This document shows positions 12,093 through 37,340 of a stretch of DNA of 64,000 nucleotides, piece by piece. Made by a program: the position numbers and the translations under genes. Source of the DNA: the human T2T-CHM13v2.0 reference genome, Homo sapiens; assembly GCF_009914755.1 (NCBI RefSeq), contig NC_060933.1. One strand, given 5' to 3'. Below the pieces are notes generated by a model. It saw only the letters and a list, made by a program, of their open reading frames with translations, had not been told where the DNA came from and made no database searches. How positions within the stretch are numbered: the first letter of the stretch is position 1; every line of letters starts with the position of its first letter.

Positions 12093-12107
12093 AACAGTGA
12101 ACATTTA
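12093..12107 (+). repeat. Left copy of 15-bp direct repeat (putative TSD of the composite insertion)
   Basis: AACAGTGAACATTTA, identical to 37123-37137. Confidence 0.9.
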
Positions 12108-12144
12108 AGTCTTTTAAGTCTTACATTTAACTTTTTTTTTTTAG

Positions 12145-13169
12145 GTCTTATAGTCATGGTTATAGTCCACGTGGGAAAATGGCATATGCTTTATTTCTAT
12201 TAAGTGTTGTCTTATTTATAGGGATTGTAGGTTTTTCTTCAAAACTGTCTCCTATTTATTGAGGCTTAGGGGTAATTATTAGTGGTGCTGTGGGTTGTGG
12301 TATTGTGTTGAATTTTGGTGGGGCTTTCATGGGGTTAATAGTCTTTTTTATTTACTTGGGTGGTATAATGGTTATTTTTGGTTATACTCCAGTGATAGCT
12401 ATTGAGGAGTATCCTGAAACATGAGGGCCAAGTACTGATATTTGAGGGGCCTTATTATTAGGATTATTAATAGAGTTGATACTGGTTTGGTGAATAGTTG
12501 AATATGATGGGGTGGTGATCACGGTTGATTTTAATAGCATAGGGAGTTGATTTAATTTTTGAGGGGGAGGGGTTGATTCATGAGGATTTTGTAGGTGCAG
12601 CTGCCTTGTATAATTATGGGTGTTGGTTGGTGGTTGCTGGTTGATCATTGTTAGTATTTTTGTCGCAATTGAAATTACTCAGGGTAATAGATTAGATAAT
12701 TAATAGTAGAGTTTAGGCCTTTTTGGTCAGATACAGTAATGGAGGCTGAAGTTTGGGTTCGTGAAATGGTTTTTGGTATAGACTTTTCTAGTCAAACTGG
12801 GTCTAGTAGAAGTGAAGCTAGATTTTGGCTTATGAATAGGCTTAAGTCGGGGGGCTGAATGGTGAATTGTAGCTGAATAAAAACCTAGTATACTGGAGAA
12901 GTTAAATGTCTATAATGGGTACTTTAAGGTTGTTAGTTATGAAATTAAGCTCTATTGCTAGTAAGAGACCTAGGGTGGTTACACCTAGGGCTGTGAGCTT
13001 TAGGTGGAGTGGTATAGTTGTTTGGGGGGATGAAGTAGGGATAATACTGTTAGTGATGAGGAATCCGGCGAAGATACTGCCGATTGCTAGGTGCTGAACT
13101 GAGTTAATTCGGAGAGGATTATCATTAATAACAATCAGAATTGTAAAACAAGGTTGTCCTATTACAGCA
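12145..13169 (+). pseudogene. NUMT, inverted block: partial tRNA-Glu, ND6 (12179-~12691, +) and 3' part of ND5 (-)
   Basis: ATGGCATATGCTTTATTTCTATTAAGT matches ND6 start (MAYALFLLSV); reverse-complement ND5 follows up to 13169. Confidence 0.92.
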
Positions 13170-15184
13170 CCTAAGGTTATAAAGTAAGCACAAGTAAATA
13201 CATAAAAACGTTAGGTCAACGTGTAGCTCATGAGGTGGCAAGAAATGGGCCACATTTTCTACCCCAGAAAATCTCACGACAACCTTTATGAAATCTAAGG
13301 GCTCAAGGAGGATTTAGCAGTAAACCAAGAGTAGAGTGCTTGGTTGAGTTTGAATAAGGCCACGAAGCACGCACACACTGCCTGTCACCCTCCGCAAATA
13401 TCATTCTAGAAATATTATTTAAATTCTCTATACATGAATAGAGGAGATAAGTCGTAATATGGTAAGTGTACTGGAAAGTGCTCTTGGACAAACAAAGTGT
13501 CGCTTAACCCAAAGCATCCAGCTTACACCCGGAAGATTTCATCACAACCTGATCACTTTGAGCCAACCCTAGCCCCAAACCTCACTAAAAATACTATTAA
13601 ACCATCGTAATCAAACCATTTACCTTAGACAAAAGAATAGGCAATAGAAATTCTTATCTTGGCACAATAGATACAGTACCGTAAGGGAAAGATGAAAGAA
13701 CTGAGCAAAGACAAGCCCTTATACCTTCTGCATAAAGTATTAAGTAGAAATAACTTTACACAGAGATAGCCAAGTCCCCCGAAACCAAATGAGCTATGCA
13801 AGAATGGCTGAAAGAGCGTACTCACCTACGTGGCAAAATAGTGGGAAGATTCATGAGTAGTGGTGATAAGCCTATCAAGCCTGCTGATAGCTGGTTGTCC
13901 AAGATAGAATCTTAGTTCAGCTTTAAACTTACCCACAGAATTACTTAATCTCCCTGTAAGTTTAACTGTTAATCTAAAGAGGGACAGCTCTTTAGACCCT
14001 AGGAACCAACCTTCCTACAGAGAGTACAAAATAACATCGCCATAGTTGGCCCAAAAGCAGCCAACAATTAAGAAAGTGTTCAAGCTCAACATCCAAGTAT
14101 CTTAAATTCTAATCACTCTACGGAACTCCTAACATTACACTGGTCTAATCTATTATTTAATAGAAGCAATAATGTTAATATAAATAACATGAAAATATTC
14201 TCCACCGCATAAGCTTACATAAGACTGGAATAACCCACTGACTGACAGTTAACAGCTAGATATTTTACAATAACCATCCTATTATTTATACTGTTAATCC
14301 AACACAGGCATGCTCTAAGGAAATATTACAAAAAGTAAAAGGAACTCGGCAAATCTTACCCCACCTGTTTACCAAAAACATCACCTCTAGCATTACCAGT
14401 ATTAGAGGCACTGCCTGCCCAGTGACATATGTTCAACGACCACCATATCCTGACCTTGCAAAGGTAACATAATCACTTGTTCCCTAAATAGGGACTTAGA
14501 AGAATGGCCACATGAGGGTTCAGCTGTCATGAGGGTTCAGCTGTCTCTTAAGTTTAATCAGTAGAATCTGACCTATTGGTGAAGAGGAGCTTATAAGCAA
14601 ATAAGATGAGAAGACCCCATGGCACTTTAATTCATTAATGCAAATAAAAACTCAAAAAGCCTATAGGCCTTAACCTACTATCTCTGCATTAAAAATTTTG
14701 GTTGGGGTGACCTCATAGCATATTCAACCTCCGAACAACCTAAACTAAGACCACAGTAGTCTAAGCGAGTTAATACACATTGACCCAATAATTTGATCAA
14801 CAGAACAAGTTACCCTAGGGATAACAGTGCAATCCTATTCTATCATATCAATAATAGGGTTTACGACCTCGATGTTGGATCAGGACATCCTAATGGTGTA
14901 GCCGCTATTAAGGGTTCATTTATTCAATGATTAAAGTCCTATGTGATCTGATTTCAGACCAGAGTAATCCAGGTTGGTTTCTATCTGTTTAACATTTCTC
15001 CTAGTATGAAAGGACAAGAGAAATACGGCCCACTTCATAAAGTGCCCTCCCCCCATAAATGATGCTATCTCAATCTAGGAAATCACCACACACCCAAGAA
15101 CAGGGTTTCTTAAGATGGCAGAGCCTGGCAATAGCATAAAACGTAAAACTTTACAATCAAAGGTTCAACTCCCCTTCTTAACAA
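13170..15184 (+). pseudogene. NUMT: 3' part of 12S rRNA, tRNA-Val (13493-13561), 16S rRNA, tRNA-Leu(UUR)
   Basis: Conserved motifs GGAGATAAGTCGTAA, CCTGTTTACCAAAAACATCACC, ACGACCTCGATGTTGGATCAGG. Confidence 0.95.
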
Positions 15185-15185
15185 T

Positions 15186-17348
15186 ATGCCTATAATTAAC
15201 CTTTTCCTACTTATATTCCCACTCTAATTGCTATAGCATTCCTTACACTTAACAGTTACGCAAAGGACCTAATACCGTAGGCCCCTGTGGACTGCTTCAA
15301 CCATTTGCTGACCCAATAAAACTTTTCACCAAAGAACCCTTACGACCCTCAACGTCTACTGTTACCCTTTATATCATTGCCTCCAACCCTGGCCCTTTCT
15401 ATCACCCTCCTCTTCTGGACTCCCCTTCCTATACCCCATCCCCTAATTAATTTTAATATAGGCCTCTTATTTATTCTAGCCACATCAAGCCTAGCAGTCT
15501 ATTCCATTCTATGATCAGGATAAGCATCCAATTCAAATTATGTACTAATCGGCACACTACGAGCTGTGGCCCAGACAATTTCATATGAAGTCACCCTAGC
15601 CATTATCCTGCTATCACTACTACTACTAAGTGGCTCAACTTATACGCATGCATCACAATGCCAGAATTACTCTGACCGCTCCTACCATCATGACCCTTAG
15701 CCATATTATGATTTATTTCCACACTAGCAAAAACTAACCGAGCCCCTTTTGACTTAACAGAAAGAGAATCAGAACTAGTTTCAGGCTTCAATGTCGAATA
15801 TGCTGCAAGTTCATTTGCCCTCTTCTTTATAGCAGAATATATGAATATTATTGTATAAATGCCCTGACTACTACTATTTTTCTAGGAGTACTACACACTA
15901 TGTATTCACCAGAACTCTGTACCATAAATTTCATTACCAAGACCCTCCTTTTAACCACCGTTTTTATGAATCCGAACAGCATACCTCCAATTCCACTACA
16001 ACCAACTCATATACCTTTTATGAAAAAATTTCCTACCACTTACATTAGCATTCTGCATATATCTCAATGCCTTTCCTAATTTCCAGCATTCCACCCCAAA
16101 CATAGGAAATATGTCTGACAAAAGAATTACTTTGATAGAGTAAACAAGAGAGGTTAAAATCCTCTTATTTCTGGAACTATCGGAATTGAACCTATCCCTG
16201 AGACTCCAAAATTCTCCATGCTACCTATTAAACCATATCCTAAAGTAAGTTCCGCTAAATAAGCTATTGGGCCCATACTCCTGAAAATGTTGGTTATACC
16301 CTTCCCATACTAATTAATCCATTAGCTCAACTTATTATCTCTCTTACTATTTTCACAGGAACCCTCATCACAATGCTACGCTCACACTGATTTCTTATCT
16401 GAACAGGCCTAGGAATAAATATAGTAGTTCTTACCCCCATCTTGATTAAAAAAACAAATCTCCACTCTACAGAAGCAGCCACCAAATATTTTCTTACACA
16501 AGCAACTGCATCTATAATTCTCATGATGGGTATCCTTTTCAACAACCCGTCCTCCGGGCAATGGACAATAATAAACACTACTAATCAATTTTCATCCTTA
16601 ATAATAACAGCCCTAGTAATAAAACTAGAAATAGCCCCCTTTCACTTCCGAGTCCCAGAAGTAACCCAGGGAACTTCTCTAATGTCTGGCATACTTCTCC
16701 TCACATGACAAAAACTAGCCCCTATCTCAATTATATTTCAAATTTTCCCATCAATAAACACGACCAGTCTCCTATCTATCACAATCCTATCCATTAACGT
16801 AAGCGGTTGAGGAGGACTTAATCAAACACAATTCTGCAAAATCTTAACCTACTCCTCAATTACTCATATAGGTTGAATGATCCCAGTACTAACTTATAAT
16901 CCAAACGTTACCATTATAAATCTGATTATTTACCTTATTTTAACAACTACCACATTTCTAGCACTTAGCCTAAGTATAAGCACTACAACCCTGTCACTGT
17001 CTCACACTTGAAACAAATTAACATGATTAACACCTATAGTTTCACTAATTCTACTATCCCTAGGAGCTTTACCTCCATTAACAGGATTTCTGCCTGAATG
17101 AGTCATCATTCAAGAATTTTCAAAAAACAATAGTCTTATTACCCCAACCATTATAGCTATCATAACACTACTCAACCTGTAGTTTTATATATGCCTAATT
17201 TACTCCATCTCAATGACAATATTCCCCACATCCAATAATACGAAAATAAAATGACAATTCAAAAACACAAAACCCATATTACTCCTCCCTCCACTTATTT
17301 CTTCTACCTTCCTCTTACCCATCTCTCCACTGATTCTAGTTATAACTT
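15186..17348 (+). pseudogene. NUMT: ND1, tRNA-Ile/Gln/Met, ND2
   Basis: ND2 peptide [16 protein letters not shown]; ND1 TNRAPFDL; mitochondrial gene order; indels and stops. Confidence 0.93.
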
Positions 17349-17740
17349 AGAAATTTAGGTTAAATAAGACCAGGGACCTTCAAAACCCTTAGTAAATGAA
17401 TTATACTTAATTTCTGTAACAAACCCAAGGACTGCAAAACTCTATTCTGCATCAGTTGAACGCAAATCAACCACTTTAATTAAGCTAAGTCCTTGCTAGA
17501 TCGGTGGAATTCAAACCCGCAAAAATTTAGTTAACAGCTAAATACCCTAATCAACTGGCTTCAATCTACTTCTCCCTCCATGTGGGGGGAGGGTGGTAGG
17601 CCGGAGAAGCCCTGGCAGCATTGAAGCTGCTCCTTTGAATTTGCAATTCAACATAAAAAATTACCTCAGGGCTGGTAAAAAGAGGTCTTGACCTCTGTCT
17701 TTAGATTTACAGTCCAATGCTTACTCAGCCATTTTACCCT
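17349..17740. pseudogene. NUMT: WANCY tRNA cluster with light-strand origin remnant (17569-17609)
   Basis: tRNA-like sequences in mitochondrial order; CTTCTCC...GGAGAAG stem. Confidence 0.88.
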
Positions 17741-17751
17741 TTTTTCCACTT

Positions 17752-20487
<2,736 letters not shown>

Positions 20488-20489
20488 GA

Positions 20490-22003
20490 ATGCCTCAACT
20501 AGATACTTCCACATGATCCATTATTATCCTGTCAATAATCATAACTTTATTCTCCATTATTCAGTTAAAATTATTAAATTTCATTTATATTATCCCTACA
20601 CCAAAAATAATCAAAACACAAAAACACAAGGCTTCCTGAGAATTAAAATGAACGAAATCTATTCATCTCTTTTGCTACCCCTACAATTCTAGGCCTACCA
20701 GCAGTAGTATTAATCATTCTGTTTCCCACTGTTTCCAACCTCTAGTCATCAAATTAGTAACCAATTATTTTCTATTCAACGATGATTAATCCAACCTGCA
20801 CTAAAACAGATAATAATTACCCATAACATTAAAGGACAAACCTGATCCCTTATAATAATATCCCTAATTATCTTCACTGCCTCAACCAACCTCCTTGGGC
20901 TTCTACCCCATTCATTTACACCAACTATCCAATTATCAATAAACCTGGGTATAGCAATCCCCCTGTGAGCAGGCGCAGTAATTACAGTCTTCTGCTTTAA
21001 AACGAAAAACTCCTTGGCTGGCTTTTTACCACAAGGCACACCTATGCCACTTATCCCTATACTAGTAATCATTGAAACCATTAGCCTATTTATTCAACCA
21101 ATAGCATTAGCTGTGCAATTAACAGCCAACATTATAGTCAGTCATCTACTAATACATTTAATTGCAGGAGACACACTAGTACTATTAGCTATTAGTTTTC
21201 CCACAGCTTCAGTTGCTTTTATTATTCTAATCCTACTGACTATTCTCAAATTCGCCATAGACCTTATTCAGGCTTATGTCTTCACACTACTAGTAAGCCT
21301 TTATCTATATGACAACACATAATGACCCACCAAACACATGCTTGCCATATAGTCAAACCCAGCCCCTGACCACTAACAGAAGCTCTCTCAGCTCTACTAA
21401 TAACATCTGGCCTGGCCATGTGATTTCACTTTAATTCTACTACTCTTTTAACCCTAGGCCTATTAATCAACACACTAACTGTATACCAATGATGATGTGA
21501 TATTATCTGAGAAAGTAAATTTCAAGGCCACCATACAACAGTTGTCCAAAAAGGCCTCCAATATGGAATAATTCTATTTATTATCTCAGAAGTATTCTTC
21601 TTTGCTGGTTTCTTCTGGGCATTCTATCACTCTAGTCTAGCCCCAATGCCAGAATTAGGAGGACACTGACCCCCCAACAGGCATTTTTCCCCTCAAACGC
21701 TTAGAAGTACCTTCCTGAATACATCTGTATTATTTGCATCAGGAGTTTCAGTTACTTCGGCTCATCACAGCCTGATAGAAGGAAATCGAAAGCAAATAAT
21801 TCTAGCACTATCCATCACGATTACCTTAGGTATTTACTTCACCCTCCTACAAATCTCAGTACTTTGAGGCCCCTTTTACTATCTCTGATGGGATCTATGG
21901 CTCAACATTCTTTACAGCCACAGGCTTTCATGGATTTCATGTTATTATTGGATCAACATTTCTCACTATCTGCTTCCTCCGCCAATTAAAATATCACTTT
22001 ACA
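20490..22003 (+). pseudogene. NUMT: ATP8, ATP6 (20648-21322), 5' part of COX3
   Basis: ATP6 C-terminus LPQGTP...[18 protein letters not shown]; COX3 start MTHQTHA. Confidence 0.95.
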
Positions 22004-24304
22004 AGATGTCTGAATAGGAATAGCTCCAGTCTGCAGCTCCCAGCATGATCGACGCAGAAGATGGTGATTTCCGCATTTCCAACTGAGGTACCTGGTTCAT
22101 CTCATCGGGACTGGTTGGACAGGGGGTGCAGCCCACAGAGGGCAAGTTGAAGCAGGGCGGGGCATCACCTCACCCAGGAAGCACAAGGGGTCAGGGGATT
22201 TCCCTTTCCCAGCCAAGGGAAGCCATGACAGACTGTACCTGGAAAATCAGGACACTTTTGCCCAAATACTGTGCTTTTCCAACAGTCTTACCAAATGGCA
22301 CACCAGGAGATTATATCCCATGTCTGGCTTGGCAGGTCCCACACCCACGGAGCCCTGCTCACTGCTAGCACAGCAGCCTAAGATCCACCCATGAGGCAGC
22401 AGCCTGGCAGGCGGAGGGGCGTCCGCCATTGCTGAGGCTTGAGTAGGTAAACAAAGTGGCCAGGGAAGCTCGAACTGGGTGGAGCCCACCACAGCTCTGC
22501 AAGGCCTGCTGCCTTTGTAGACCACACCTCTGGGGGCAGGGCATAGCTGAAAAGGCAGCAGAAACTTCTGCAGACTTAAACGTCCCTGTCTGACAGCTCT
22601 GAAGAGAGCAGTGTTTCTACCAGCATGGTGTTTGAGCTCTGACAATGGACAGACTGCCTCAGGTGGATCCCTGATGCTTCTGTAGCCTAAGTGGGAGACA
22701 CCTCCCAGTAGAGGCCAACTGACACCTCATACAGGTGGGTGCCTGTCTGGGACGAAGCTTCCAGAGGAAGGATCAGGCAGCAACATTGGCTGTTCTGCAA
22801 TATTTGCTGTTCTGCAGCCTCCACTGCAGATACCGAGGCAAACAGAGTCTGGAGTGGACCTCCAGCAAACTCCAAGAGACCTGCAGCTGAGGGACCTGAC
22901 TGTTAGAAAGAAAACTAACAAACAGAAAGGAATAGCATCAACATCAACAAAAAGGGCATCCACACCAAAACCCCATCTGTAGGTTACCAGCACCAAAGAC
23001 CAAAAGTAGATAAAACCACAAAGATGGGGAGAAACCAGAGCAGAAAAGCTGAAAATTCTAAAAACCAGAGGGCCTCTTCTCCTCCAAAGGATTGCAGCTC
23101 CTTGCCAGCTGGATGGAGAATGACTTTGACGAGCTGACAGAAGTAGGCTTCAGAAGGTTGGTAATAACAAACTTCTCCAAGCTAAAGGAGGATGTTCAAA
23201 CCCATCGCAAGGAAGCTAAAAACCTTGAAAAAAGATTAGACCAATGGCTAACTACAATAAACAGTGTAGAGAAGACCTTAAATGACCTGATGGAGCTGAA
23301 AACCATGGCATGAGAACTACAGGACGCATGCACAAGCTTCACTAGCCGACTTGATCAAGTGGAAGAAAGGGTATCAGTGATTGAAGATCAAATTAATGAA
23401 ATAAAGCGAGAGGAGAAGTTTAGAGAAAAAAGAGTAAAAAGCAACAAGATAAAGCCTACAAGAAATACAGGACTATGTGAAAAGACCAAATCTACATTTG
23501 ATTGTTGTACCTGAAAGTGACGGGGAGAATGGAACCAAGCTGGAAAACACTCTTCAGGATATTATCCAGGAGAACTTCCCCGACCTACCAAGGCAGGCCA
23601 ACATTCAAATTCAGGAAATACAGAGAACTCCACAAAGATACTCCTTGAGAAGAGCAACCCCAAGACACGTAATTGTCATATTCACCAAGGTTGAAATGAA
23701 GGAAAAAAATGTTAAGGGCAGCCAGAGAGAAATGTCGGGTTGCCCACAAAGGGAAGCCCATCAGACTAACAGCGGATCTCTCAGCAGAAACTCTACAAGC
23801 CAGAAGAGAGTGGAGGCCAATATTCAACATTCTTAGAGAAAAAGACTTTTCAACCCAGAATTTCATATCCAGCCACACTAAGCTTCATAAGTGAAGGAGA
23901 AATAAAATCCTTTACAGACAAGCAAATGCTGAGAGATTTTGTCATTACCAGGCCTGCCTTACAAGATCTCCTGAAGGAAGCACTAAACATGGAAAGGAAC
24001 AACCAGTAGCAGCCACTGCAAAAACATACCAAATTGTAAAGACCATCGATGATAGGAAGAAACAGCATCAACTAACGGGCAAAATAACCAGCTAACATCA
24101 TAATAACAGGTTCAAATTCACACATAACAATATTAACCTTAAATGTAAATGGAATGAATGCCCCAATTAAAAAACACAAACTGGCAAATTGGATAAAGAT
24201 TGAAGACCCATCACTGTGCTGTATTCAGGAGACCAATCTCATGTGCAGAGAAACACATGGGCTCAAAATAAAGGGATGGAGGAAGATCTACCAAGCAAAG
24301 GGAA

Positions 24305-24336
<32 letters not shown>

Positions 24337-27300: not shown

Positions 27301-28107
27301 GATATGAACAGACACTTCTCAAAAGAAGGCATTTATGCAGCCAACAGACATATAAAAAATGCTTATCATCACTGGTCATCAGAGAAATGGAAATCAAAAC
27401 CACAATGAGATACCATCTCATGCCAGTTAGAATGGTGATCATTAAAAAGACAGGAAACAACAGATGCTGGAGAAGATGTGGCGAAATAGGAACACTTTCA
27501 CACTGTTGGTGGGAGTAGTGTAAACTAGTTCAACCACTGCAGAAGACAGTGTGGCGACTCCTCAAGGATCTAGAACTAGAAATACCATTTGACCCAGCCA
27601 TCCCATTACTGGGTATACACCCAAAGGATTATAAATCATGCTGCTATAAAGACACATGCCCATGTATGTTTATTGTGGCACTATTCACAATAGCAAAGAC
27701 TTGGAACCAATCCAAATGCCCATCAATGATAGACTGGATAAGAAAATATGCCACAAATATCCCAAGGAATACTATGCAGCCATAAACAAGGGTGAGTTCA
27801 TGTCCTTTGCAGGGACATGGATGAAGCTGGAAACCATAATTCTCAGCAAACTAGCGCAAGGACAGAAAAGCAAACACTGCATGTTCTCACTCATAGGTGG
27901 GAGTTGAACAATGAGAACACTTGGACACATGGCAGGGAACATCACACAAAGGGGCCCGGGGGAGGGATAGCATTAGGAGAAATACCTAATGTAAATGACG
28001 AGTTAATGGGTGCTGCAAATCAACATGGCACATGTATATCTATGTAACAAACCTGCACATTGTGCACATGTACCCTAGAACTTAAAGTATAATAAAAATA
28101 TATATAC
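22004..28107 (+). mobile_element. Full-length, inactivated primate L1 (L1PA5-7-like) inserted in NUMT COX3
   Basis: 5' UTR start CAAGATG..GAATAGGAA, ORF1 from 23024, ORF2 EN/RT remnants (FADD) with start mutated to ATA, 3' UTR and A tail; TT/AAAA site and TSD ATCACTTTACA at 21993-22003 and 28108-28118. Confidence 0.95.
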
Positions 28108-28118
28108 ATCACTTTACA

Positions 28119-31100
28119 TCCAACCAGCACTTTGGCTTTGAAGCCACTGCCTGATGTTGACACTTTGTAGATGTAGTATGACTATTCTTATATGTCTCTA
28201 TCTACTGATGAGGATCCTACTCTTTTAGTATAAAGAGTACCATTGACTTCCAATCAACTAGTTTCGATAATATCTGAAAGATATTAAATAACCTGACACT
28301 AGCCTTAGTAACCGACACCTTACTGGCCCTACTACTACTAATAATTACATTTTTACTTCCACAAATTAATATTTATATAGATAAATCCAGCCCCTATGAA
28401 GGCAGATTTGACCCAATAACCTCCAACTGCCTCCCCTTTTCCATAAAATTCTTCCTGGTAGCCAACACATTTCTCCTCTTAGACTTAGAAATCGCTCTAA
28501 TACTACCCCTGCCATGAGCTATTCAAACAAATTACCTAACAACAATAATCACCACAGCCCTTATACTAGTTATCATTTTAATCCTAGGCTTAATTTACAA
28601 AAGAACTCAAAAAGGGTTAGATTGAATTGAATTGGTAAATAGTTTAAGTCAAAAGAAATGATTTCGATTCATTAGATTATAATAAACCATATTTACCAAA
28701 TGCCCTCTATTTACATCAACATTATATTACCATATACCATATCACTACTGGTAAAATTAATCTATCAAACCCACCTAATATCATCCCTATGTGCCTAGAA
28801 GGCATAATACTGTCAATATTTATCATAATTACCCTTATAACTTTAAATATACATTTTACTCTAGCATCTATAATACCCATTATCCTCCTAGTATTTGCTG
28901 CCTGTGAAGCCGCAGTGGGCCTTGCCTTATTAGTTTCAATCTCCAACACATACGGCCTAGATTACACACAAAATCTAAATTTACTTCAGTGCTAAAAATT
29001 ATTCCGACAATTATGCTGTTACCAATAATATGATTCTCTAAAAATTCTATAATCTGAATTAACATGACCATCCACAGCCTACTTATCAGCCTCATCACCC
29101 TATTGTTTTTTAACCAATTCAACAGTAACTCATCCAACTTCTCACTAGTTTTCTCTTCTGATCTGCTGATGTCACCCCTCCTAATTTTAACAGCCTATTA
29201 CCTTTTATAATCCTAGCAAGCCAATATTAACTGTTCAATGAATCACCCCCACAAAAAAGCTCTATATTTCTATATTGATTTCCCTGCAGATTTTTTAAAA
29301 TTATAGCATTCACAGCCACAGAACTAATTATATTTTATATTTTCTTTGAAGCCACACTAATTCCTACCCTAATTATTATTATCACCCGCTGAGGGAACCA
29401 ACCAGAACGCCTCAATGCAAGCTCATATTTCCTATTGTACACACTAGTAGGGTCCCTTCCTCTACTTGTTACACTTGTCTACACTTTAAATACTTCAGAT
29501 TCTCTAAATATGCTAGTAATGATATTTACTGACCAAGAACTGTTAGCCTCCTTATCCAATAATCTTATATGACTAGCATGTATTATGGCCTTTATAGTAA
29601 AAATAACTCTATTCGGACTTCACCTGTGACTCCCAAAAGCCCATGTAGAAGCCCCTATTGCCGGCTCAACAGTACTTGCAGCGGTACTCCTAAAACTAGG
29701 CGGCTGCGGTATAATACGGCTTACCCTTATCCTCAGCCCCCTAACAGAATATATAGCCTACCCCTTCCTCACACTATCCCTATGAGGGATAGTTATGACA
29801 AGCTCCATTTGTCTACAAACCGATGTAAAATCACTTATTGCCTACTCCTCTGTAAGCCATATACCACTTGTCATCATAGCTCTCCTAATCCAAACCCCTT
29901 GAAGCTTTACAGGTGCCGTCACCCTTATAATTACCCATGGAGTCACTTCATCCCTGTTATTCTGCCTAGCAAATTCCAACTACGAGTGAGTCCAAAACGG
30001 AATCATATACTTACCTGAGGCCTTCAAATACTCCTCCCACTGATATAGCCTCATGATGACTTCTAGCAAATCTCACTAATCTTGCCTTACCCCTACCATT
30101 AATCTAGTAAGGGAACTCTCTGTGATCATGGCTTCATTCTCCTGATCAAACATCACTATTATGCTTACAGGACTTAATATACTAATTACAACCCTCTACT
30201 CCCTACATGTACCAATCACAACACAATGAGGGACACTTACATATTACATTAACAGTTAAACCTTCCTTTATACGAGAAAATACATTAATATTTATACATG
30301 TTACACCTATTCTTCTATTATCCTAAATCCTAAAATTATTATGGGCTTTACATGCTGTAGCTATAGTTTAACCAAAACATTAAATTGTGGATCTAATAAT
30401 AGAAGCCTGCAACTTCTTATCTACCAAGAAAGTATGCAAGAACTGCTAACTCATGCCCCCATGCCTAACAATATGGCTTTCTCAACTTTTAAAGGATTGG
30501 AGTCATCCGTTGGCCTTAGGAACCAAAAACATTGGTGCAACTCCAAAGAAAAGTAACAAATATGTATTTTTCCACTACTATAATAGCCCTAATCGCCTTA
30601 ATCACACCAATTATTACGTTAGTCAACCCCTGCAAAAGAAGATTCATACCCAAATTACATAAAAATAGCCATCACATGCGCCTTCACCATTAGCCTCATC
30701 CCAACGTTTATATATACAGACCAAGAAGTCATTATCTCAAACTGACATTGAATGACAATCCCAACTCTTGAACTCTCACTAAGCTTTAGACTACTTCTCC
30801 ATAATATTTATTCTAGTAGCACTATTTGTTACCTGTAGAATTCTCAATATGATATATAAACTCAGACCCTAACATTAATCAATTTTTCAAATATTTTCCT
30901 CATCACAGTATTCTTCCAATATTCCACCAACAAACTCTTTCAACTCTTTATCGGATGAGAAGGTATAGGAATCATGTCTTTCTTACTAACTGGCTGACAA
31001 TATGGCCGAGCAGATGCTAATACAGCAGCCCTCCAAGCAGTCCTGCACAATCGCATCGGCGATATTGGTTTTATTTTAGTTATAGCATGGTTCCTCTTTT

Positions 31101-31816
31101 CCTCCAACACATGAGAGATTCAACAAGCATTCATTCTAAACCCTACCTCTAATCCCCTTCCATTAATTCGCCTTCTCTTAGCAGCAGCAGGAAAGTCAGC
31201 TAAATTCGGCCTCCATCCCTGACTTCCATCCGCCATAGAAGGCCCAACCCCAGCCTCAGCCCTGCTCCACTCCAGCACTATAGTTGTAGCAGGAGTTTTC
31301 CTGCTCATCCGCTTCTACCCTTTAATAGAAAATAACCTCTGAACCCAAACCTTTACATTATCTCCAGGGGCTGTTACCACCTTATTTACAGCAATCTGCG
31401 CTCTAACACAAAATGATATTTAAAAAATCATAGCATTCTCCACCTCAAGTCAGCTGGGCCTTACGATAGTCACAATTGGCATTAATCAGCCACATCTAGC
31501 ATTCCTTCACATGTGCACCCACACCTTTTTTAAAGCTATATTATTTATATGCTCAGGCTCCATCATCCACAATCTCAATGATGAACAAGATATTTGAAAA
31601 ATAGGACTATTCAAGACTTTACCCTTCACTTCCTCTTCCCTTATTATTGGTAGCCTTGCACTTACAGATATGCCTTTCTTCACAGGCTTTTACTCTAAAG
31701 ACCTTATTATCGAAACCACAAATACTGTCATATACCAACGCCTGAGCCCTTTCTATTACTCTTACTGCCACCTCCTTAACTGCTGGCTATAGTACCCGTG
31801 TTATTTTCTTTGCTCT
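28119..31816 (+). pseudogene. NUMT: end of COX3, tRNA-Gly, ND3, tRNA-Arg, ND4L, ND4, tRNA-His/Ser/Leu, 5' part of ND5
   Basis: ND4[25 protein letters not shown]; ND4 [12 protein letters not shown]; ND5 [14 protein letters not shown]; ends ...TTTGCTCT. Confidence 0.95.
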
Positions 31817-34499
31817 GCGGACTGGCCATGCAGGAGTGGTAAGGGCCCGGGCCACGCGCGACGCCTGGGGGCCCTGCTGCATCGCCCGTTTGTTCGGGGA
31901 AGGTGGGGGGGACGCTTCATGCCGCCGCGCCCAGCAGGGTTTCCATGTCTGAGATGCCCGCCCTGGCCCCAAGAGAATGAACCAGCCGCAGAGGATGGCA
32001 TCCGTGGACACGGACAAGGAGCTCAGTAACCTGGACTTCAGCATGATGTTCCCGCTGCCCGTTGCCAACGGGAAGGGCCGGCCCGCCTCCCTGGCCGGGG
32101 CGCAATTCAGAGGTTCAGGTCTTGAGAACTGGCCCAGCTCAGGCTCCTGGGGCAGCGGCGACCAGAACAGCTCCTCCTTTGACCCCAGCTGGACGTTCAG
32201 CGAAGGCGCTCAACTTGCTGAGTCGCACGGCAGCCACTCTCCATTCACATTCCTGGGACCGGGACTCGGAGGCAAGAGCAGCTAGCGGGGCCTATTCCTC
32301 CTTTGGTAGAGACGCAGGCGTGCGCAGCCTGACTCAGGCTGGCTTCCTGCCGGGCAAGCTGGCCCTCAGCAGCCCCGGACCCCTGTCCCCCTCAGGCATG
32401 AAGGGGACCTCCCGGTACTACCCTCCTACGCCAGCAGCTCTGGCGGACAGAGGCGGACAGCGGCCTGGACACGCAGCCCACGAAGGTCGGGAAGGTCCCG
32501 CCTGGTCTTCCATCCTCGGCGTACCTGCCCAGCTCAGGTGAGGAGTACGGTAGGGATGCCGCCGCCTATCCATCCGCCAAGACGCCCAGCAGCGCCTGTC
32601 CCGCCCCCTTCTACATGGCAGATGGCAGCCTGCACCCCTAAGCCGAGCTCTGGAGTTCCCTGGGCCAGGTGGGCTTTGGCCCCATGCTGGGCGGGGGCTC
32701 ATGCCCCTCGTCCCTCCCGCCCAGCAGCGGCCCTGTGGGCAGTGGCGGAGGCAGCAGCACGTTTGGCGGCCTGCACCAGCACGAGCGCGTGGGCTACCGG
32801 CTGCACGGAGGAGAAGTGAACGGTGGGCTTCCGGCTGCATCCACCTTCTCCTTGGCCCCCGGAGCCACGTAGGCGGCGTCTCCAGCCACACGCCTGTCGG
32901 CGGGGCCGACAACCTCCTGGGCTCCCGAGGGACCACAGCCAGCAGCTCTGGGGACGCCCTCGGGAAGGCCTGGCCTCAATCTACTCTCCGGATCACTCAA
33001 GCAATAACTTGTGGTCCAGCCCCTCCACCGCCGTGGGCTCCCCCCAGGGCCTGGGAGGGACGTCGCACTAGCCTGGAGCAGGAGTCCCTGGTGCCTTATC
33101 ACCCAGCTACGACGGGGGTCTCCACGGCCTGGAGAGTAAGATAGAAGACCACCTACCTGAACGAGGGCATCCACGTGCTCTGCAGCCACGCCATGGGCAC
33201 GGCTAGCAACGTGCACACGCTGCTACCCGGCCACCGGGCGCTGGCCTTGGGCTTCGCCGGCCCCATGCTGCTGGTGGGGGCAGCACGCAGGCCTGGTTGG
33301 AGGCGAACACCCTGAGGACGGCCCTGCGGGCAGCGCCAGCCTCATGCATATCCATGTTGCCCTCTCCAGCTAGCCAGGCGCCCTCCCCGACCTCTCTTGG
33401 CCTTCCGACTCCTGCAGTGGGCTAGGGCGAGCAGGCCACTGGGGAAATCAAGCGGGAGGAGGAGGATGAGGAGAACACGTCGGCGGCTGACCACTCAAGA
33501 GGAGAAGAAGGAGCTGAAGGACCCCCGGGACCGGACCAGCCCAGACAAGGACGAGGAGGAAGATGACCTTTTCCCCCCAGAGCAGAAGGCCGAGTGGGAG
33601 AAGCAGGTGGCCAATAACGCCAGGGAGCGGCTGCGGGTCCCTTAAGAGGGCTCTTAAGGAGCTGGGGCGCATGTGGCAACTGCACCTCAACAGCGAGAAG
33701 CCCCAGACCAAACTCCTTATCCTGCACCAGGCCGTCTCGGTCATCCTGAATTTGGAGCAGCAAGTGCGAGAGCGGAACCTGAATCCCAAAACAGCCTGTT
33801 TGAAACGGCGAGAAGAGAAGGTGTCGCGCGTGTTCGGAGGCCCCCAGATGGTGCTTTCAGCTGCCCACCTGGGCTTGAGTGAAGCCCACAACCCCGCTGG
33901 GCACATGTGAAAGGTACGCCTCCGTGGGACGAGCCACCCGCCCTCAGCCCCGTGGGCTGGGCCCAGAACGCCCACTTGAGGCCCTGGGCTTCATCCACAT
34001 CCACACCTCACACAACTGTTGTCAGCATTGAGCCAACACCGACCTGATGAGGCTCAGAGTGATGGGGGCAAGGAAGGTGAGTGATGGGGGTGAGGAAGGT
34101 GACGCTGGGTCCAGGAGCTCCCTGGGACCCCGGCTCACCCCTCACTGGCCTCGCTCCCCCTGCCCCCGTATCTCAGCCACCATGTCACCCTGTGACCTGC
34201 CCCATGGACCCTGAAACTGCATCTTGGCCCTGTTGTCTGGGCTGGCAGGAGCTTTTTTTTTTTTTTTTTTTTTTTTTTCCAGTAAACAAAACCTGAATGC
34301 AAGCAACAAAACATACACTTTGTCAGAAAAGAAAAAAATGCCTTAACTATAAAATGTGGAGAAATCGTAACATATCACTTGAGGGAGATGCTGTGGAAAC
34401 TTGGCTTATTCTTCAAAAGCCAGCAGCAAATTGTGCCTAAGCGTAATTTTTTTTAAGGAAAATAAAAAGAACATTAGTTATTTAAAAAAAAAAAAAAAA
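31817..34499 (+). pseudogene. TCF3P1: TCF3 (E2A) processed pseudogene, E12 isoform, with 5' UTR, 3' UTR and poly(A)
   Basis: ATG 31977 [17 protein letters not shown]; E12-specific [18 protein letters not shown] and [22 protein letters not shown]; ends AHNPAGHM* at 33910; AATAAA 34461, A16 at 34484-34499. Confidence 0.95.
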
Positions 34500-36005
34500 C
34501 CTGGACTGACCTTGGCCAGGCTGGATCAGACTGGCCTAGAGTAGACTTCAGAGGGTGACTCCCCTGGTGGGCTGGTCTCAGCTGATCTTGACTGTCCCGC
34601 CTCCACACAGGGCCCATCCATCTTCCTCTTGATCCCCTGCTGCAAAGACATTGCCTCTGATGCCACCTCCATGAACCTGGGCTGCCTGGCCACAGGCTAC
34701 TTCCTGAAGTCAGTGACTGTGACCTGGGACACAGGCTCCCTCAACAGGAGCGCTGGGACCTTCCCAGCCACCACCCTCACGCCCTCTGGCCATTACGCCA
34801 TCACCAGCCAGCTGACTGCCTCGGGTGCGTGGGCCAAACGCTCACCTGCAGCGTGGCACACACTCTGTGGTCCGCAGACCAGGTCAGTACCTTCAGCATC
34901 TACTCCAGGGACTTCACCCTCCCCACCGTGAAGATCTTACAGTCCTCCTGTGATGGCAGTGGACACTTACCCCCGACCATCCAGTTCCTGTGCCTCATCT
35001 CTGGGTACACCCAGGTGCCATCAGCATCACCTGGCTGGAGGATGGGCAGGTCGTGGATGTGAACTGGTCCATCGCCTCTCCCATACTGGAGGATGAGCTG
35101 GCCTCCACACAAAGCAAGCTCACCCTCACCCAGAAGCGCTGGCTGCCCGACCACACCTACACCTGCCAGGTCACCTATCAAGGTAACACCTTTGAGGACA
35201 GTGCCAAGAAGTGTGCAGATTCTAACCCGCAAGGGGTGAGCACCTACCTGAGCCGGTCCAGCCCCTTCTACCTGTTCATCCGCAAGTTGCCCACAATCAC
35301 CTGTCTGGTGGTGGACCTGGCACCCAGCAAGGAGAACGTGAAGCTGACTTGGTCCCAGGCCAGTGGGAAGTCTGTGGCTCAGGTCATCCTAAGGCAAGAG
35401 AAGCAGTGCAATGGCACGTTCACCATCACGTCCACCCTGCTGGTGGGCACCAGAGACTGGATCAAGGGGGAGACCTACCAGTGCAGGGTGACCCACACCC
35501 ACCTGCAGTCCACGACCAAGATCAGCGGCCCATGTGCTCCCCCACAGGTCTACGTGTTTGCAACGCTAGAAACGCCGAGGAACCAGGACAAGCGCACCCT
35601 CACCTGCCTGATCCAGAACTTCTGGCCCAAGGACATCTTGGTGCAGTGGCTGTACAACGAGGTGCAGCTCCCGGACACTTGGCACAGCATGACGCAGCCC
35701 CGCAAAACCAAGGGCTCTGGCGTCTTAGTCTTCAGCTGCCTGGAGGTTACCAGGGCTGAATGGGAACAGAAAAACGAGTTCATCTGCTCTGTGGTCCATG
35801 AGACAGCGACTGGCTCACAGACTGTCAAGTAACTGTTGTCTGTAAATCCCATTAAATGTCCTCCTGCCTTCCTCCCCACTAGGGCTCTGTCCAGCTGTGT
35901 GGTGGGAAGGGCTGGCCAGACCTTCTGTCCACTGTTGCAATGACCCCAGGAAGCCACCCCCAATAAACAGTGCCTGCTCAGAAAACAAACAAACAAACAA
36001 ACAAA
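34500..36005 (+). pseudogene. IGHEP2: IGHE (IgE constant, secreted form) processed pseudogene with non-VDJ leader
   Basis: CH1 starts GCCTCCACACAG at 34599; CH1-CH4 joined without introns; AATAAA 35962; (AAAC)n tail 35982-36005. Confidence 0.95.
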
Positions 36006-37122
36006 CATAAAAACCCTAGAGGAAAACCTAGGCAATACCATTCAGGACATAGGCATGGGCAAGGACTTCATGACTAAAACACCAAAAGCAATGGCAACAA
36101 AAGCCAAAATAGACAGATGGGATCTAATTAAACTAAACAGCTGCATAGCAAAAGAAACTGATCAGAGTGAACAGGCTACCTACAGAATGGGAAAAATTTT
36201 TTGCAATCTAGCCACCTGACAAAAGGCTAATATCAAGAATCTACAAAGAACTTAAACAAGTTTACAAGAAAAAAACAACCCCATCAAAAAGTGGGTAAAG
36301 GATATGAACAGACACTTCTCAAAAGAAGACATTTATGTGGCCAACAAACATATGAAAAAAAGCTCATCATCACTGGTCATCAGAGAAATGCAAATCAAAA
36401 CCAGAGTGAGGTACCATCTCATGCCAGTTAGAATGGCGATCATTAAAAAGTCAGGCAACAACAGATGCTGAAGAGGATGTGGAAAAACAGGAATGCTTTT
36501 ACATTGTTGATGGGAGTGTAAATTAGTTCAACCATTGTGGAAGACAGTGTGGCAATTCCTCCAGGATCCAGAGTTAGAAATACCATTTCACTGAGCAATT
36601 CCATTACTGGGTATATACCCAAAGGATTATAAATCATTCTACTATAAAGACACATGCACATGTATGTTTATTGTGGCACTTTTCACAATAGCAAAGACTT
36701 GGAACCAACCCAAATGCCCATCAATGATAGACTGGATAAAGAAAATGTGACACATATACACCATGGAATACTATGCAGCCATAAACAAGGATGAGTTCAT
36801 GTCCTTTGCAGGGACAAAGATGAAGCTAGAAACCATAATTCTCAGCAAACACAGGAACAGAAAACCATACACCACTTGTTCTCGCTGATAAGTGGGAGTT
36901 GAACAATGAGAACATATGGACACAGGGAGGGGAACATCACACACCAGGGCCTGTTGTTGGGTGGAGGGCTAGGGGAGGGATAGCTTTAAGAGAAATACCT
37001 AATGTAGTTGATGGGTTGATGGGTGCAGCAAACCACCATGACACGTGTATACCTACGTTAACAAACCTGCACCTTCTGCACATGTATCCCAAAACTTAAA
37101 GTATAATAAAATTTAAAAAAAA
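36006..37122 (+). mobile_element. 5'-truncated L1 (L1PA7/8-like) 3' end
   Basis: ORF2 C-terminal region, 3' UTR, AATAAA and A tail running directly into the 15-bp repeat. Confidence 0.93.
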
Positions 37123-37340
37123 AACAGTGAACATTTATTGTAGGCTTACATTGGGCTAAATGCATTTTATGGATAATCTCATTTAATCCTCATAACAACC
37201 CTTGGAGAACATGTATGATTATTATCTCTATTTTAAGCATGGAGAACTGAATAGCTTACCCAAGGTGGCATGACTAGTAAATCACTGGACCAGGATTTAA
37301 ACCCAAAAAGTCTGATCCCAGAGTTCATGCTTATAAGCCT
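37123..37340 (-). mobile_element. MIR whose edge is the right copy of the 15-bp repeat
   Basis: AACATTTATTG...ATCTCATTTAATCCTCATAACAACCC...CCCAAGGT MIR core. Confidence 0.8.

What the first reader, a model, noticed from the sequence alone, without database searches (positions are those of the whole stretch)
12093..37137. One 15-bp TSD brackets NUMT + TCF3 + IGHE + L1: a single ~18.6-kb multi-template chimeric retro-insertion in JAK2 intron 22
Seen: AACAGTGAACATTTA at 12093-12107 and again at 37123-37137, directly after the L1 poly(A). Between them, mitochondrial sequence, TCF3 mRNA with poly(A), IGHE mRNA with A-rich tail and an L1 3' end follow one another with no host spacer; TCF3, IGHE, L1 and the main NUMT block are co-oriented. 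Joining the two flanks restores a continuous MIR end (CAGTAACAGTGAACATTTATTG...). Removing the nested L1 (6115 bp) and Alu (312 bp), which have their own TSDs, leaves ~18.6 kb; the ancestral intron would be ~7.0 kb instead of 32 kb. Known: L1 ORF2p template switching yields chimeras such as U6-L1. Inference: TPRT began on L1 RNA and jumped L1 -> IGHE -> TCF3 -> mitochondrial nucleic acid. The parts are normally annotated as independent pseudogenes; I do not know of a description of them as one event. Caveat: the nick site (GT/AACA) is only a degenerate L1 endonuclease site.
Basis: partly seen in the sequence, partly recalled or inferred. Interest (0 to 1): 0.95.

Follow-up and report, generated by a model that had tools for sequence, protein, structure and literature searches.

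The report
NUMT, two retrocopies, L1: one insertion
A 25-kb block in a JAK2 intron, made of mitochondrial DNA, copies of the TCF3 and IGHE messenger RNAs and an L1 tail, is bracketed by one 15-base target-site duplication, so it most likely entered the genome in one L1-driven event.

Summary
AACAGTGAACATTTA occurs exactly twice, at 12093-12107 and 37123-37137. The right copy directly follows the L1 poly(A). Among 8 junctions it is the only target-site-type repeat of 8 nt or more.

New here: the two mitochondrial blocks, one inverted, end at the same ND5 position in 7 of 7 reference NUMTs, with 0-6 nt overlap. They therefore come from one break or one template.

TCF3P1 begins in exon 1, 1-2 nt after ND5. 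IGHEP2 begins directly after the TCF3 A16 tail. No part has its own duplication, and no second copy of the cluster exists in the genome.

The divergences of the L1, TCF3P1 and IGHEP2 fit one date.

Not settled:
- IGHE and the L1 could have entered later, at poly(A) boundaries.
- The mitochondrial part could have been copied (RNA or single-stranded DNA) or ligated as double-stranded DNA.
- Primate orthologues could not be examined.

At minimum, the NUMT and TCF3 arrived together in an L1-type event. I found no description of the cluster as one event. Verdict: partly supported, a new variant of chimeric retro-insertion.

The parts
12093..12107 (+). Left copy of the 15-nt target-site duplication (AACAGTGAACATTTA), 93-107 nt downstream of JAK2 exon 22
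   Evidence: aligns 13/15 to the first 15 nt of the dispersed repeat that continues in the right flank
12108..12136 (+). 5' junction stretch. Either a strongly diverged 5' half of mt tRNA-Glu or junction filler. It contains ACATTTAA twice and AAGTCTT twice.
   Evidence: In 4 of 7 NUMT references the BLAST homology starts only at 12137. In 3 of 7 a looser alignment (about 78% identity) runs to 12098-12103. aragorn finds no tRNA-Glu here.
12137..13168 (+). Mitochondrial block A, inverted relative to block B: 3' half of tRNA-Glu, ND6 in sense (start 12179), then about 465 nt antisense to the 3' part of ND5
   Evidence: hub annotation MTND6P5 and MTND5P36
13169..31817 (+). Mitochondrial block B, in the sense of the H-strand transcript: last ~320 nt of 12S rRNA, tRNA-Val, 16S, ND1 ... 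ND5 up to about codon 448. The tRNAs are retained. It is interrupted by a later Alu and a later L1.
   Evidence: hub annotation
19769..20094 (-). Later Alu (19783-20080) with its own 14-nt duplication TTAAGCTTCAATTC. Not part of the original event.
21993..28118 (+). Later near full-length L1 (22004-28107) with its own 11-nt duplication ATCACTTTACA. Not part of the original event.
31819..34499 (+). TCF3 processed copy, from exon 1 (5' UTR) to the polyadenylation site, plus a pure A16 tail (34484-34499)
   Evidence: 19 exon blocks match the chromosome 19 gene, introns absent
34500..36002 (+). IGHE processed copy: a 100-nt upstream exon spliced to CH1-CH4, ending at the gene's poly(A) site, then an (AAAC)n-type tail (35983-36002)
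36003..37122 (+). 5'-truncated L1 3' end (about 1.1 kb) and poly(A) remnant
37123..37137 (+). Right copy of the 15-nt target-site duplication. It is the first 15 nt of the dispersed (MIR-like) repeat that runs on to about 37350.

Best explanation
One L1 endonuclease / target-primed reverse transcription event, dated roughly to the early anthropoid period (recalled rates), put about 18.6 kb into JAK2 intron 22.

**Proposed sequence of steps:**
1. The bottom strand was nicked just left of AACAGTG (site TGTT/AC).
2. First-strand cDNA started on an L1 RNA poly(A) and copied 1.1 kb.
3. It moved to the poly(A) end of a spliced IGHE transcript and copied it to its 5' end.
4. It moved to the poly(A) end of a TCF3 mRNA and copied it into exon 1.
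5. The growing end became joined to mitochondrial sequence inside ND5.

**The mitochondrial part.** It consists of two pieces that meet at one mitochondrial position: 12S-to-ND5 in one orientation and ND5-to-tRNA-Glu in the other. Both pieces have their 3' ends at that position. This is what is expected in three cases:
- a polymerase jumped in turn onto two 3' ends created at one site (a broken mtDNA, or the ND5/ND6 RNA pair);
- the free 15-nt top-strand overhang primed a second copy on the same template until it met the first one (a reversed form of twin priming);
- three fragments of one circle were made and two were ligated in.

Filling in the staggered nicks gave the 15-nt duplication.

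**Shown:** the duplication, the order, orientation and tightness of the junctions, the RNA origin of the TCF3 and IGHE parts, and the shared mitochondrial breakpoint.

**Inferred:** that all four parts arrived at once, the order of template switches, and the nature of the mitochondrial template. My split is about 0.25 RNA, 0.25 copied single-stranded DNA and 0.5 ligated double-stranded DNA.
For: - **Exact 15-nt duplication in target-site geometry.** It abuts the L1 poly(A) on the right and the mitochondrial end on the left. Of 19,881 random 30-mer pairs, 0 share 13 nt or more.
- **The 15-mer is the start of a dispersed repeat** that continues only in the right flank. The left copy is therefore a duplicated fragment.
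- **No internal duplications.** No pair of the 8 junctions other than the outer one shares more than 7 nt.
- **Tight junctions.**
  - ND5 ends at 31816/31817 and TCF3 exon 1 homology starts at 31819.
  - TCF3 A16 is followed at once by the first base of the IGHE copy.
  - The IGHE poly(A) site is followed by 20 A-rich nt and then the L1, with AAAC microhomology.
- **TCF3 and IGHE are RNA copies.** Introns are absent in 19 and 5 exon blocks respectively. The IGHE upstream exon has a GT donor and CH1 an AG acceptor in the gene, and the copy ends at the gene's poly(A) site.
- **Shared mitochondrial breakpoint.** The inner end of block A and the 3' end of block B fall within 0-7 nt of each other in 7 of 7 other NUMTs. 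By chance this is of the order of 1 in 1,000 for a 16.5-kb genome.
- **No source locus.** TCF3P1 and IGHEP2 match only themselves, their parent genes and paralogues (TCF4; other IGH constant genes).
- **Compatible ages.**
  - Terminal L1: 6.3% (5.6% non-CpG) from the consensus of 29 relatives.
  - TCF3P1 against TCF3: 7.2% non-CpG over 2,227 sites for both lineages together, with pN 0.090 and pS 0.146 over 378 codons.
  - IGHEP2 against IGHE: 10.0% non-CpG over 1,275 sites for both lineages.
  - The nested L1, which must be younger, is 6.5% from the consensus of 12 relatives. Those relatives are on average younger than the terminal L1's (4.2% against 5.0%).
- **Block A length.** From the ND6 start to its end, block A is 990 nt. 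A passage in PMC12871924 gives the mature ND6 mRNA as 1.0-1.1 kb.
Against: - **Size.** 18.6 kb, with up to about 17.5 kb on one cDNA, is far beyond the usual size of L1-mediated insertions (recalled).
- **Nick site.** TGTT/AC is only a partial match to the L1 endonuclease consensus (recalled consensus).
- **The structure does not exclude later entry of IGHE and the L1.** The edge between a T-rich 3' UTR end and a poly(A) tail is itself a good endonuclease site. A duplication made of A would be invisible there.
- **Weak age resolution.**
  - The L1 consensuses come from relatives picked for likeness to the query: 29 loci taken from 40 scored of 15,790 candidates, and 12 of 39 hits.
  - The TCF3 codon count covers only the first 378 codons, because my exon joins lost the frame after that.
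  - IGHE evolves too fast to split the two lineages.
- **Against an RNA template for block B.** All tRNAs found lie in place over 12.4 kb (aragorn finds 14 at expected places). The template would therefore have been an unprocessed polycistronic precursor.
- **Left junction.** The first 23-29 nt after the left duplication cannot be assigned securely.
- **Overlap.** The 0-6 nt overlap at the shared breakpoint is ambiguous, because CAGC can be read as part of either block.
Confidence: 0.6

Rival explanations
1. Staged origin. The first event was a TCF3 processed pseudogene with mitochondrial sequence joined to its 5' end, flanked by the 15-nt duplication. Later, IGHE and/or the L1 fragment were inserted by separate L1-type events at the 5' edge of the existing poly(A) tail(s). 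They kept the same orientation and their duplications consisted of A only.
For: The structure fits equally well. Each internal boundary lies at an A-run: A16 at 34484-34499 and (AAAC)n at 35983-36002. The L1 truncation point lies in an A-rich stretch with AAAC microhomology. The age estimates cannot resolve gaps of some millions of years. Insertion of retroelements into older poly(A) tails is common (recalled).
Against: It needs a rare processed pseudogene to land at exactly the tail of another rare chimeric pseudogene. The divergences show no sign of different ages. Even in this model the NUMT and TCF3 share one event, because the 15-mer has no third copy between ND5 and TCF3.
Confidence: 0.28
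2. Independent events throughout: an ordinary NUMT inserted by end joining, followed by three unrelated retro-insertions next to it. The 15-mer repeat is then a coincidence.
For: Each part is annotated separately as an ordinary pseudogene (hub table). NUMTs normally integrate by end joining without duplications (PMC2567098, passages).
Against: The repeat is exact, 15 nt long and placed at 0 nt from both outer junctions; 0 of 19,881 random pairs reach 13 nt. None of TCF3, IGHE or the L1 has a duplication of its own. The left 15-mer is a detached copy of the start of the repeat found in the right flank.
Confidence: 0.03
3. The cluster was assembled elsewhere and moved as a unit. Either one long read-through RNA ending at the L1 poly(A) signal was retrotransposed, or a DNA segment was transposed or duplicated.
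For: A single long RNA would also give one duplication and one terminal poly(A).
Against: No other copy of TCF3P1 or IGHEP2 exists in this genome. The internal A16 and A-rich tails, and the inverted block A, would still need the same explanation at the source locus.
Confidence: 0.04

Closest known systems
Bipartite L1 chimeras such as U6/L1 (Buzdin and colleagues; Law and Burns 2026, PMC13174262, sections read: outline and section 10)
   Same: A 5'-truncated L1 3' end lies at the 3' side. Another cellular RNA copy is fused in the same orientation at the 5' side. One duplication flanks the whole. Template switching by the L1 reverse transcriptase is the usual explanation.
   Different: Here there are three or four further templates, two of them full polyadenylated mRNAs joined tail to head. 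The 5'-most part is 13.4 kb of mitochondrial sequence. [quoted passage not shown]
Tripartite chimeric retrogenes: WEIRD-MgSINE-MGL in Magnaporthe, B2-U6-L1 in mouse (PMC2104539, passages)
   Same: Several templates in a row and one duplication of 14-16 nt around the whole, read as double template switching.
   Different: That paper states that the two human tripartite elements then known had no identifiable flanking repeats. This human case has a clean 15-nt one, is far larger and includes organelle sequence.
NUMT integration by non-homologous end joining at double-strand breaks (PMC2567098, passages)
   Same: Mitochondrial fragments, sometimes several and rearranged, are joined with little or no microhomology. 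tRNAs and gene order are kept as in mtDNA.
   Different: This NUMT lies inside an L1-type target-site duplication and is joined base to base to the 5' end of an mRNA copy. The break it filled was therefore an L1 insertion intermediate.
Proposed retrocopies of mitochondrial RNAs with poly(A) and duplications (RetroSeeker, PMC11727581, passages)
   Same: An L1-linked route for mitochondrial sequence into the nucleus.
   Different: Those are single rRNA or mRNA-sized copies with their own poly(A). Here there is no poly(A) on the mitochondrial part, it spans 12.4 kb with tRNAs in place, and a second, inverted block is present.
L1 twin priming (5' inversion), recalled from Ostertag and Kazazian 2001; not read here
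   Same: An inverted 5' segment plus a sense 3' segment from one template, within one duplication.
   Different: In canonical twin priming, the flank-side end of the inverted piece adjoins the 5' end of the sense piece on the template. Here the inner end of the inverted piece adjoins the 3' end of the sense piece. Only a reversed variant would fit, in which the second primer sits downstream of the entry point of the first cDNA.

Membership tests
L1 target-primed reverse transcription insertion | Target-site duplication of about 7-20 nt flanking the whole insert | tested here: met
   15 of 15 nt identical, at 0 nt from both outer junctions
L1 target-primed reverse transcription insertion | 3' end is a poly(A) tail abutting the duplication | tested here: met
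   L1 3' end, then TTT, then 8 A (10 with the first two bases of the duplication)
L1 target-primed reverse transcription insertion | Nick at the endonuclease consensus (TTTT/AA on the nicked strand; recalled) | tested here: inconclusive
   The inferred site is TGTT/AC, which matches 3 of 4 T and the first A
Chimeric retrogene by template switching | Parts in the same orientation, fused directly, 3'-most part a 5'-truncated L1 | tested here: met
   The exception is mitochondrial block A, which is inverted relative to block B.
Chimeric retrogene by template switching | No duplications around the single parts | tested here: met
   Longest other repeat in target-site geometry is 7 nt. A duplication made of A only could not be seen.
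Chimeric retrogene by template switching | All parts present or absent together across species | not testable with these tools
   No primate genomes are on hand. The divergences are compatible but coarse.
Processed pseudogene (TCF3P1, IGHEP2) | Introns removed at the gene's splice sites, ends at the gene's poly(A) site, A tail | tested here: met
NUMT inserted by end joining alone | No L1-type duplication, no attached poly(A) element | tested here: not met
   It lies inside the 15-nt duplication together with poly(A)-ended copies
RNA-derived mitochondrial retrocopy | Ends at RNA processing sites, tRNAs removed, poly(A) | tested here: not met
   For block B the tRNAs are retained, both ends lie inside genes and there is no poly(A). 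Block A is inconclusive: its length fits ND6 mRNA but its 5' end is uncertain.
Canonical L1 twin priming | The flank-side end of the inverted piece adjoins the 5' end of the sense piece on the template | tested here: not met
   The adjoining ends are the inner end of A and the 3' end of B

The most novel reading that the evidence does not exclude
The mitochondrial part was not captured DNA but was reverse-transcribed by the L1 enzyme from mitochondrial RNA. That RNA would be 12.4 kb of unprocessed H-strand precursor plus the roughly 1-kb ND6 transcript that pairs with it at ND5. The whole 18.6 kb would then be one product of four or five template jumps. It would be the largest RNA-derived NUMT, and evidence that leaked mitochondrial (double-stranded) RNA can be written into the germline by L1.
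Probability: 0.2. Interest if true: 0.85.

Novelty: new variant of a known kind. Interest (0 to 1): 0.65.

Why it matters
NUMTs are held to enter by end joining at breaks of unknown origin. Here a 13.4-kb NUMT sits inside an L1-type target-site duplication, fused to mRNA copies. This ties its entry to an L1 insertion intermediate.

It would also be a human multi-part chimera with a clean duplication. A 2007 paper said such a case was lacking for the human tripartite elements known then (PMC2104539, passages).

It shows how much sequence one such event can add: it quadrupled an intron of an essential kinase gene, about 100 nt from a splice donor.

The shared ND5 breakpoint gives a concrete, testable handle on whether polymerases copy mitochondrial templates during L1 integration.

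For annotation, fifteen separately named pseudogenes may be one mutation.

Tried and rejected
- **Mitochondrial reference.** The held assembly has 24 contigs and no mitochondrial contig. I used other NUMTs as stand-ins. All rCRS-style coordinates are recalled and approximate.
- **My first estimate of the breakpoints.** Taken from the annotation rows, it placed the two ND5 breakpoints about 100 nt apart. Direct alignment showed that they coincide.
- **Block A starting exactly at the tRNA-Glu 5' end (a processing site).** Not supported. The first 23-29 nt align poorly, and aragorn finds no tRNA-Glu.
- **m1A stop site in ND5 (recalled position).** Considered as the cause of the breakpoint and dropped, because it lies some 25-30 nt away by my approximate coordinates.
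- **Canonical twin priming.** Rejected on geometry.
- **A later retro-insertion at the NUMT/right-flank boundary.** Rejected. It would have left a third copy of the 15-mer between ND5 and TCF3, and there is none.
- **Codon-based split of the two lineages.** It worked only for the first 378 TCF3 codons and is uninformative for IGHE.
- **7-mers shared between the duplication and the 3' ends of IGHEP2 (AACAGTG) and TCF3P1 (GAACATT).** About 5% of random pairs reach 7 nt, and the IGHE gene reads ACTGTG at that place. Treated as chance.
- **Literature searches.** Searches found the NUMT listed as HSA_NumtS_329 in JAK2 (10.1101/239053, one passage). They found no account of the cluster as one event.
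- **Papers not held**, which may describe the flanks:
  - Buzdin 2003
  - Ueda 1985
Full report
**Observation**

The 15-mer AACAGTGAACATTTA occurs twice in the window, at 12093-12107 and 37123-37137, even when two mismatches are allowed. The right copy follows the end of an L1 3' UTR, TTT and eight A. The left copy lies 93-107 nt into JAK2 intron 22 and is followed by mitochondrial-like sequence.

That call's shuffle statistic (9 of 100 shuffles with two or more matches at up to two mismatches) does not address placement. I therefore compared the 30 nt left of each of eight junctions with the 30 nt right of each later junction. Only the outer pair shares more than 7 nt, and it shares 15, flush with both junctions. 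Of 19,881 random 30-mer pairs from the window, none shares 13 nt or more.

The right flank is a dispersed repeat with 20 other matching places. In 2 of those 20 the homology begins at base 1 of the 15-mer. The left 15-mer aligns 13/15 to the same repeat positions, but nothing upstream of it does. The left copy is therefore a detached duplicate of the first 15 nt of that repeat. The name MIR is from recall.

**Anatomy**

| Part | Coordinates | Notes |
|---|---|---|
| Junction stretch | 12108-12136 | Uncertain assignment |
| Mitochondrial block A | to 13168 | tRNA-Glu 3' half, ND6 in sense from 12179, then about 465 nt antisense to ND5 |
| Mitochondrial block B | about 13169-31817 | From the last ~320 nt of 12S rRNA through 16S, ND1 ... 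into ND5; tRNAs in place |
| TCF3 copy | 31819-34483 | 19 exon blocks including exon 1; then 16 pure A |
| IGHE copy | 34500-35982 | Then an (AAAC)n tail |
| L1 3' end | from about 36003 | 1.1 kb, AAAC microhomology at its start |

- aragorn finds 14 tRNAs at expected places in block B, plus one probable false hit.
- The first 100 nt of the IGHE copy come from an exon about 760 bp upstream of CH1 in the gene. That exon has a GT donor and CH1 an AG acceptor. The copy ends at the gene's poly(A) site.
- A later L1 (22004-28107) and a later Alu (19783-20080) have their own 11-nt and 14-nt duplications.

**New finding: the shared breakpoint**

I aligned the inner end of block A (12800-13200) and the 3' end of block B (31400-31860) to seven other NUMTs that run through this part of ND5. 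In 7 of 7, the two ends fall at the same place, from a gap of 1 nt to an overlap of 7 nt.

The multiple alignment shows B ending in GCTCTG and A, read in the same sense, beginning GCTGTAATAGG, where the references read GCTCT(A/G)ATAGG. The four bases CAGC at 13165-13168 can also be read as 12S sequence. The true overlap is therefore between 0 and 6 nt.

For a 16.5-kb genome, coincidence within a few bases has a chance of the order of one in a thousand. The two blocks thus come from one break or one template. My first estimate from the annotation rows (about 100 nt apart) was wrong.

**What this implies**

- In the window's top strand both blocks have their 3' ends at the shared position.
- The mitochondrial stretch from cytochrome b through the D-loop to mid-12S is absent.
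- Three mechanisms fit:
  - (a) End-to-end template jumping. The cDNA leaves the TCF3 5' end and lands on a 3' end at that position. It copies down to 12S, then lands on the complementary strand's 3' end at the same position and copies up to tRNA-Glu. The two 3' ends could be those of a broken mtDNA, or of the H-strand RNA and the ND6 RNA that pairs with it.
  - (b) A reversed twin priming. The 15-nt top-strand overhang primes near the tRNA-Glu/cytochrome b boundary on the same template and runs until it meets the start of the first cDNA.
  - (c) Ligation of two of three double-stranded fragments of one circle.
- Canonical twin priming is excluded by geometry.
- In favour of RNA: every piece is in transcript sense, the D-loop is absent, and block A from the ND6 start is 990 nt. 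A passage in PMC12871924 gives the mature ND6 mRNA as 1.0-1.1 kb.
- Against RNA: 12.4 kb with all tRNAs unprocessed, no poly(A), ends inside genes, and the sheer length.
- I cannot decide between these.

**One event or several**

A separate later insertion of TCF3 at the NUMT boundary would have left a third 15-mer between ND5 and TCF3. There is none. The NUMT and at least TCF3 therefore share the event that made the duplication.

For IGHE and the L1, the structure allows a rival. The edge of a poly(A) tail is a good endonuclease site, and an insertion there keeps the orientation and leaves a duplication of A only.

The ages do not separate the models:

| Comparison | All sites | Non-CpG |
|---|---|---|
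| Terminal L1 vs consensus of 29 relatives | 6.3% (1,108 sites) | 5.6% |
| TCF3P1 vs TCF3 | 278 of 2,653 (10.5%) | 160 of 2,227 (7.2%) |
| IGHEP2 vs IGHE | 201 of 1,454 (13.8%) | 127 of 1,275 (10.0%) |

- For the terminal L1, only 40 of 15,790 candidates were scored, so the consensus leans towards the query.
- For TCF3, pN is 0.090 and pS 0.146 over the first 378 codons. This suggests that most change lies on the pseudogene branch.
- For IGHE, pN is about equal to pS, so the two branches cannot be split.
- The nested L1 is 6.5% from the consensus of 12 of its 39 hits. Those relatives are younger on average than the terminal L1's (4.2% against 5.0%), so the nesting order is not contradicted.
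- With recalled primate rates, about 6% corresponds to some 40-45 million years.

No second copy of TCF3P1 or IGHEP2 exists in the assembly. This argues against a source locus.

**Literature**

- The NUMT is listed as HSA_NumtS_329 in JAK2 (10.1101/239053, one passage).
- Searches found no description of the cluster as one event.
- Law and Burns 2026 (PMC13174262) catalogues L1 chimeras by multi-species alignment. [quoted passage not shown] It does not mention TCF3, IGHE, JAK2, mitochondria or NUMT, and has no chr9 entry near the expected coordinates. Files not held could differ.
- PMC2104539 (passages) states that the two human tripartite elements then known lacked identifiable flanking repeats.
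- RetroSeeker (PMC11727581, passages) proposes L1-mediated retrocopies of mitochondrial RNAs.
- PMC2567098 (passages) gives the end-joining view of NUMT entry.
- Buzdin 2003 and the 1982 and 1985 Ueda papers on this epsilon pseudogene are not held. They may describe the flanks.

**Verdict**

One L1-type event certainly covers the NUMT and TCF3. It probably covers all four parts (0.6), with staged entry of IGHE and/or the L1 as the main rival (0.28).
- This is a new variant of the known chimeric retro-insertion, notable for its size, its number of templates, its clean duplication and its link between NUMT entry and an L1 insertion intermediate.

Noticed in passing
window 34500-34599; L030 838-937: The first 100 nt of IGHEP2 come from an exon about 760 bp upstream of IGHE CH1, spliced GT-AG to CH1. 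The parent RNA was therefore a sterile (germline-type) epsilon transcript, not a VDJ-bearing mRNA. The copy starts 2 nt after an AG in the gene.
   Followed up: partly
window 12101-12130: Just after the left duplication, ACATTTAA occurs twice (12101 and 12123) and AAGTCTT twice (12107 and 12116). This looks like short templated duplications at the 5' junction, or a badly decayed tRNA-Glu 5' half.
   Followed up: partly
window 14511-14544: Perfect 17-nt tandem duplication (CATGAGGGTTCAGCTGT, two copies) inside the 16S rRNA part of the NUMT.
   Followed up: no
window 34057-34100: 22-nt tandem repeat (two copies, 91% alike) in the 3' UTR part of TCF3P1. I did not check whether the parent gene has it.
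   Followed up: no
window 35966-35972 and 34469-34475: The 3' ends of IGHEP2 (AACAGTG, 10 nt before the tail) and TCF3P1 (GAACATT, 8 nt before the tail) each share a 7-mer with the target-site duplication. The IGHE gene reads ACTGTG there. About 5% of random pairs reach 7 nt, so this is probably chance.
   Followed up: partly
window 12001-37137 relative to JAK2 exon 22 (ends 12000): The 25-kb insert lies about 100 nt from the exon 22 splice donor. It is in the sense orientation of JAK2 and carries at least three polyadenylation signals (TCF3, IGHE, L1), yet the gene is functional. The effect on JAK2 transcripts was not examined.
   Followed up: no
window 13949-14024, minus strand: aragorn in mammalian mitochondrial mode calls a tRNA-Phe on the minus strand inside the 16S region of the NUMT. 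It is out of place, so probably a false call.
   Followed up: no
window 19783-20080: The Alu nested in the CO2 part is inverted relative to the insert and is little decayed, with a 14/14 duplication. It looks like a young subfamily by eye; not classified.
   Followed up: no
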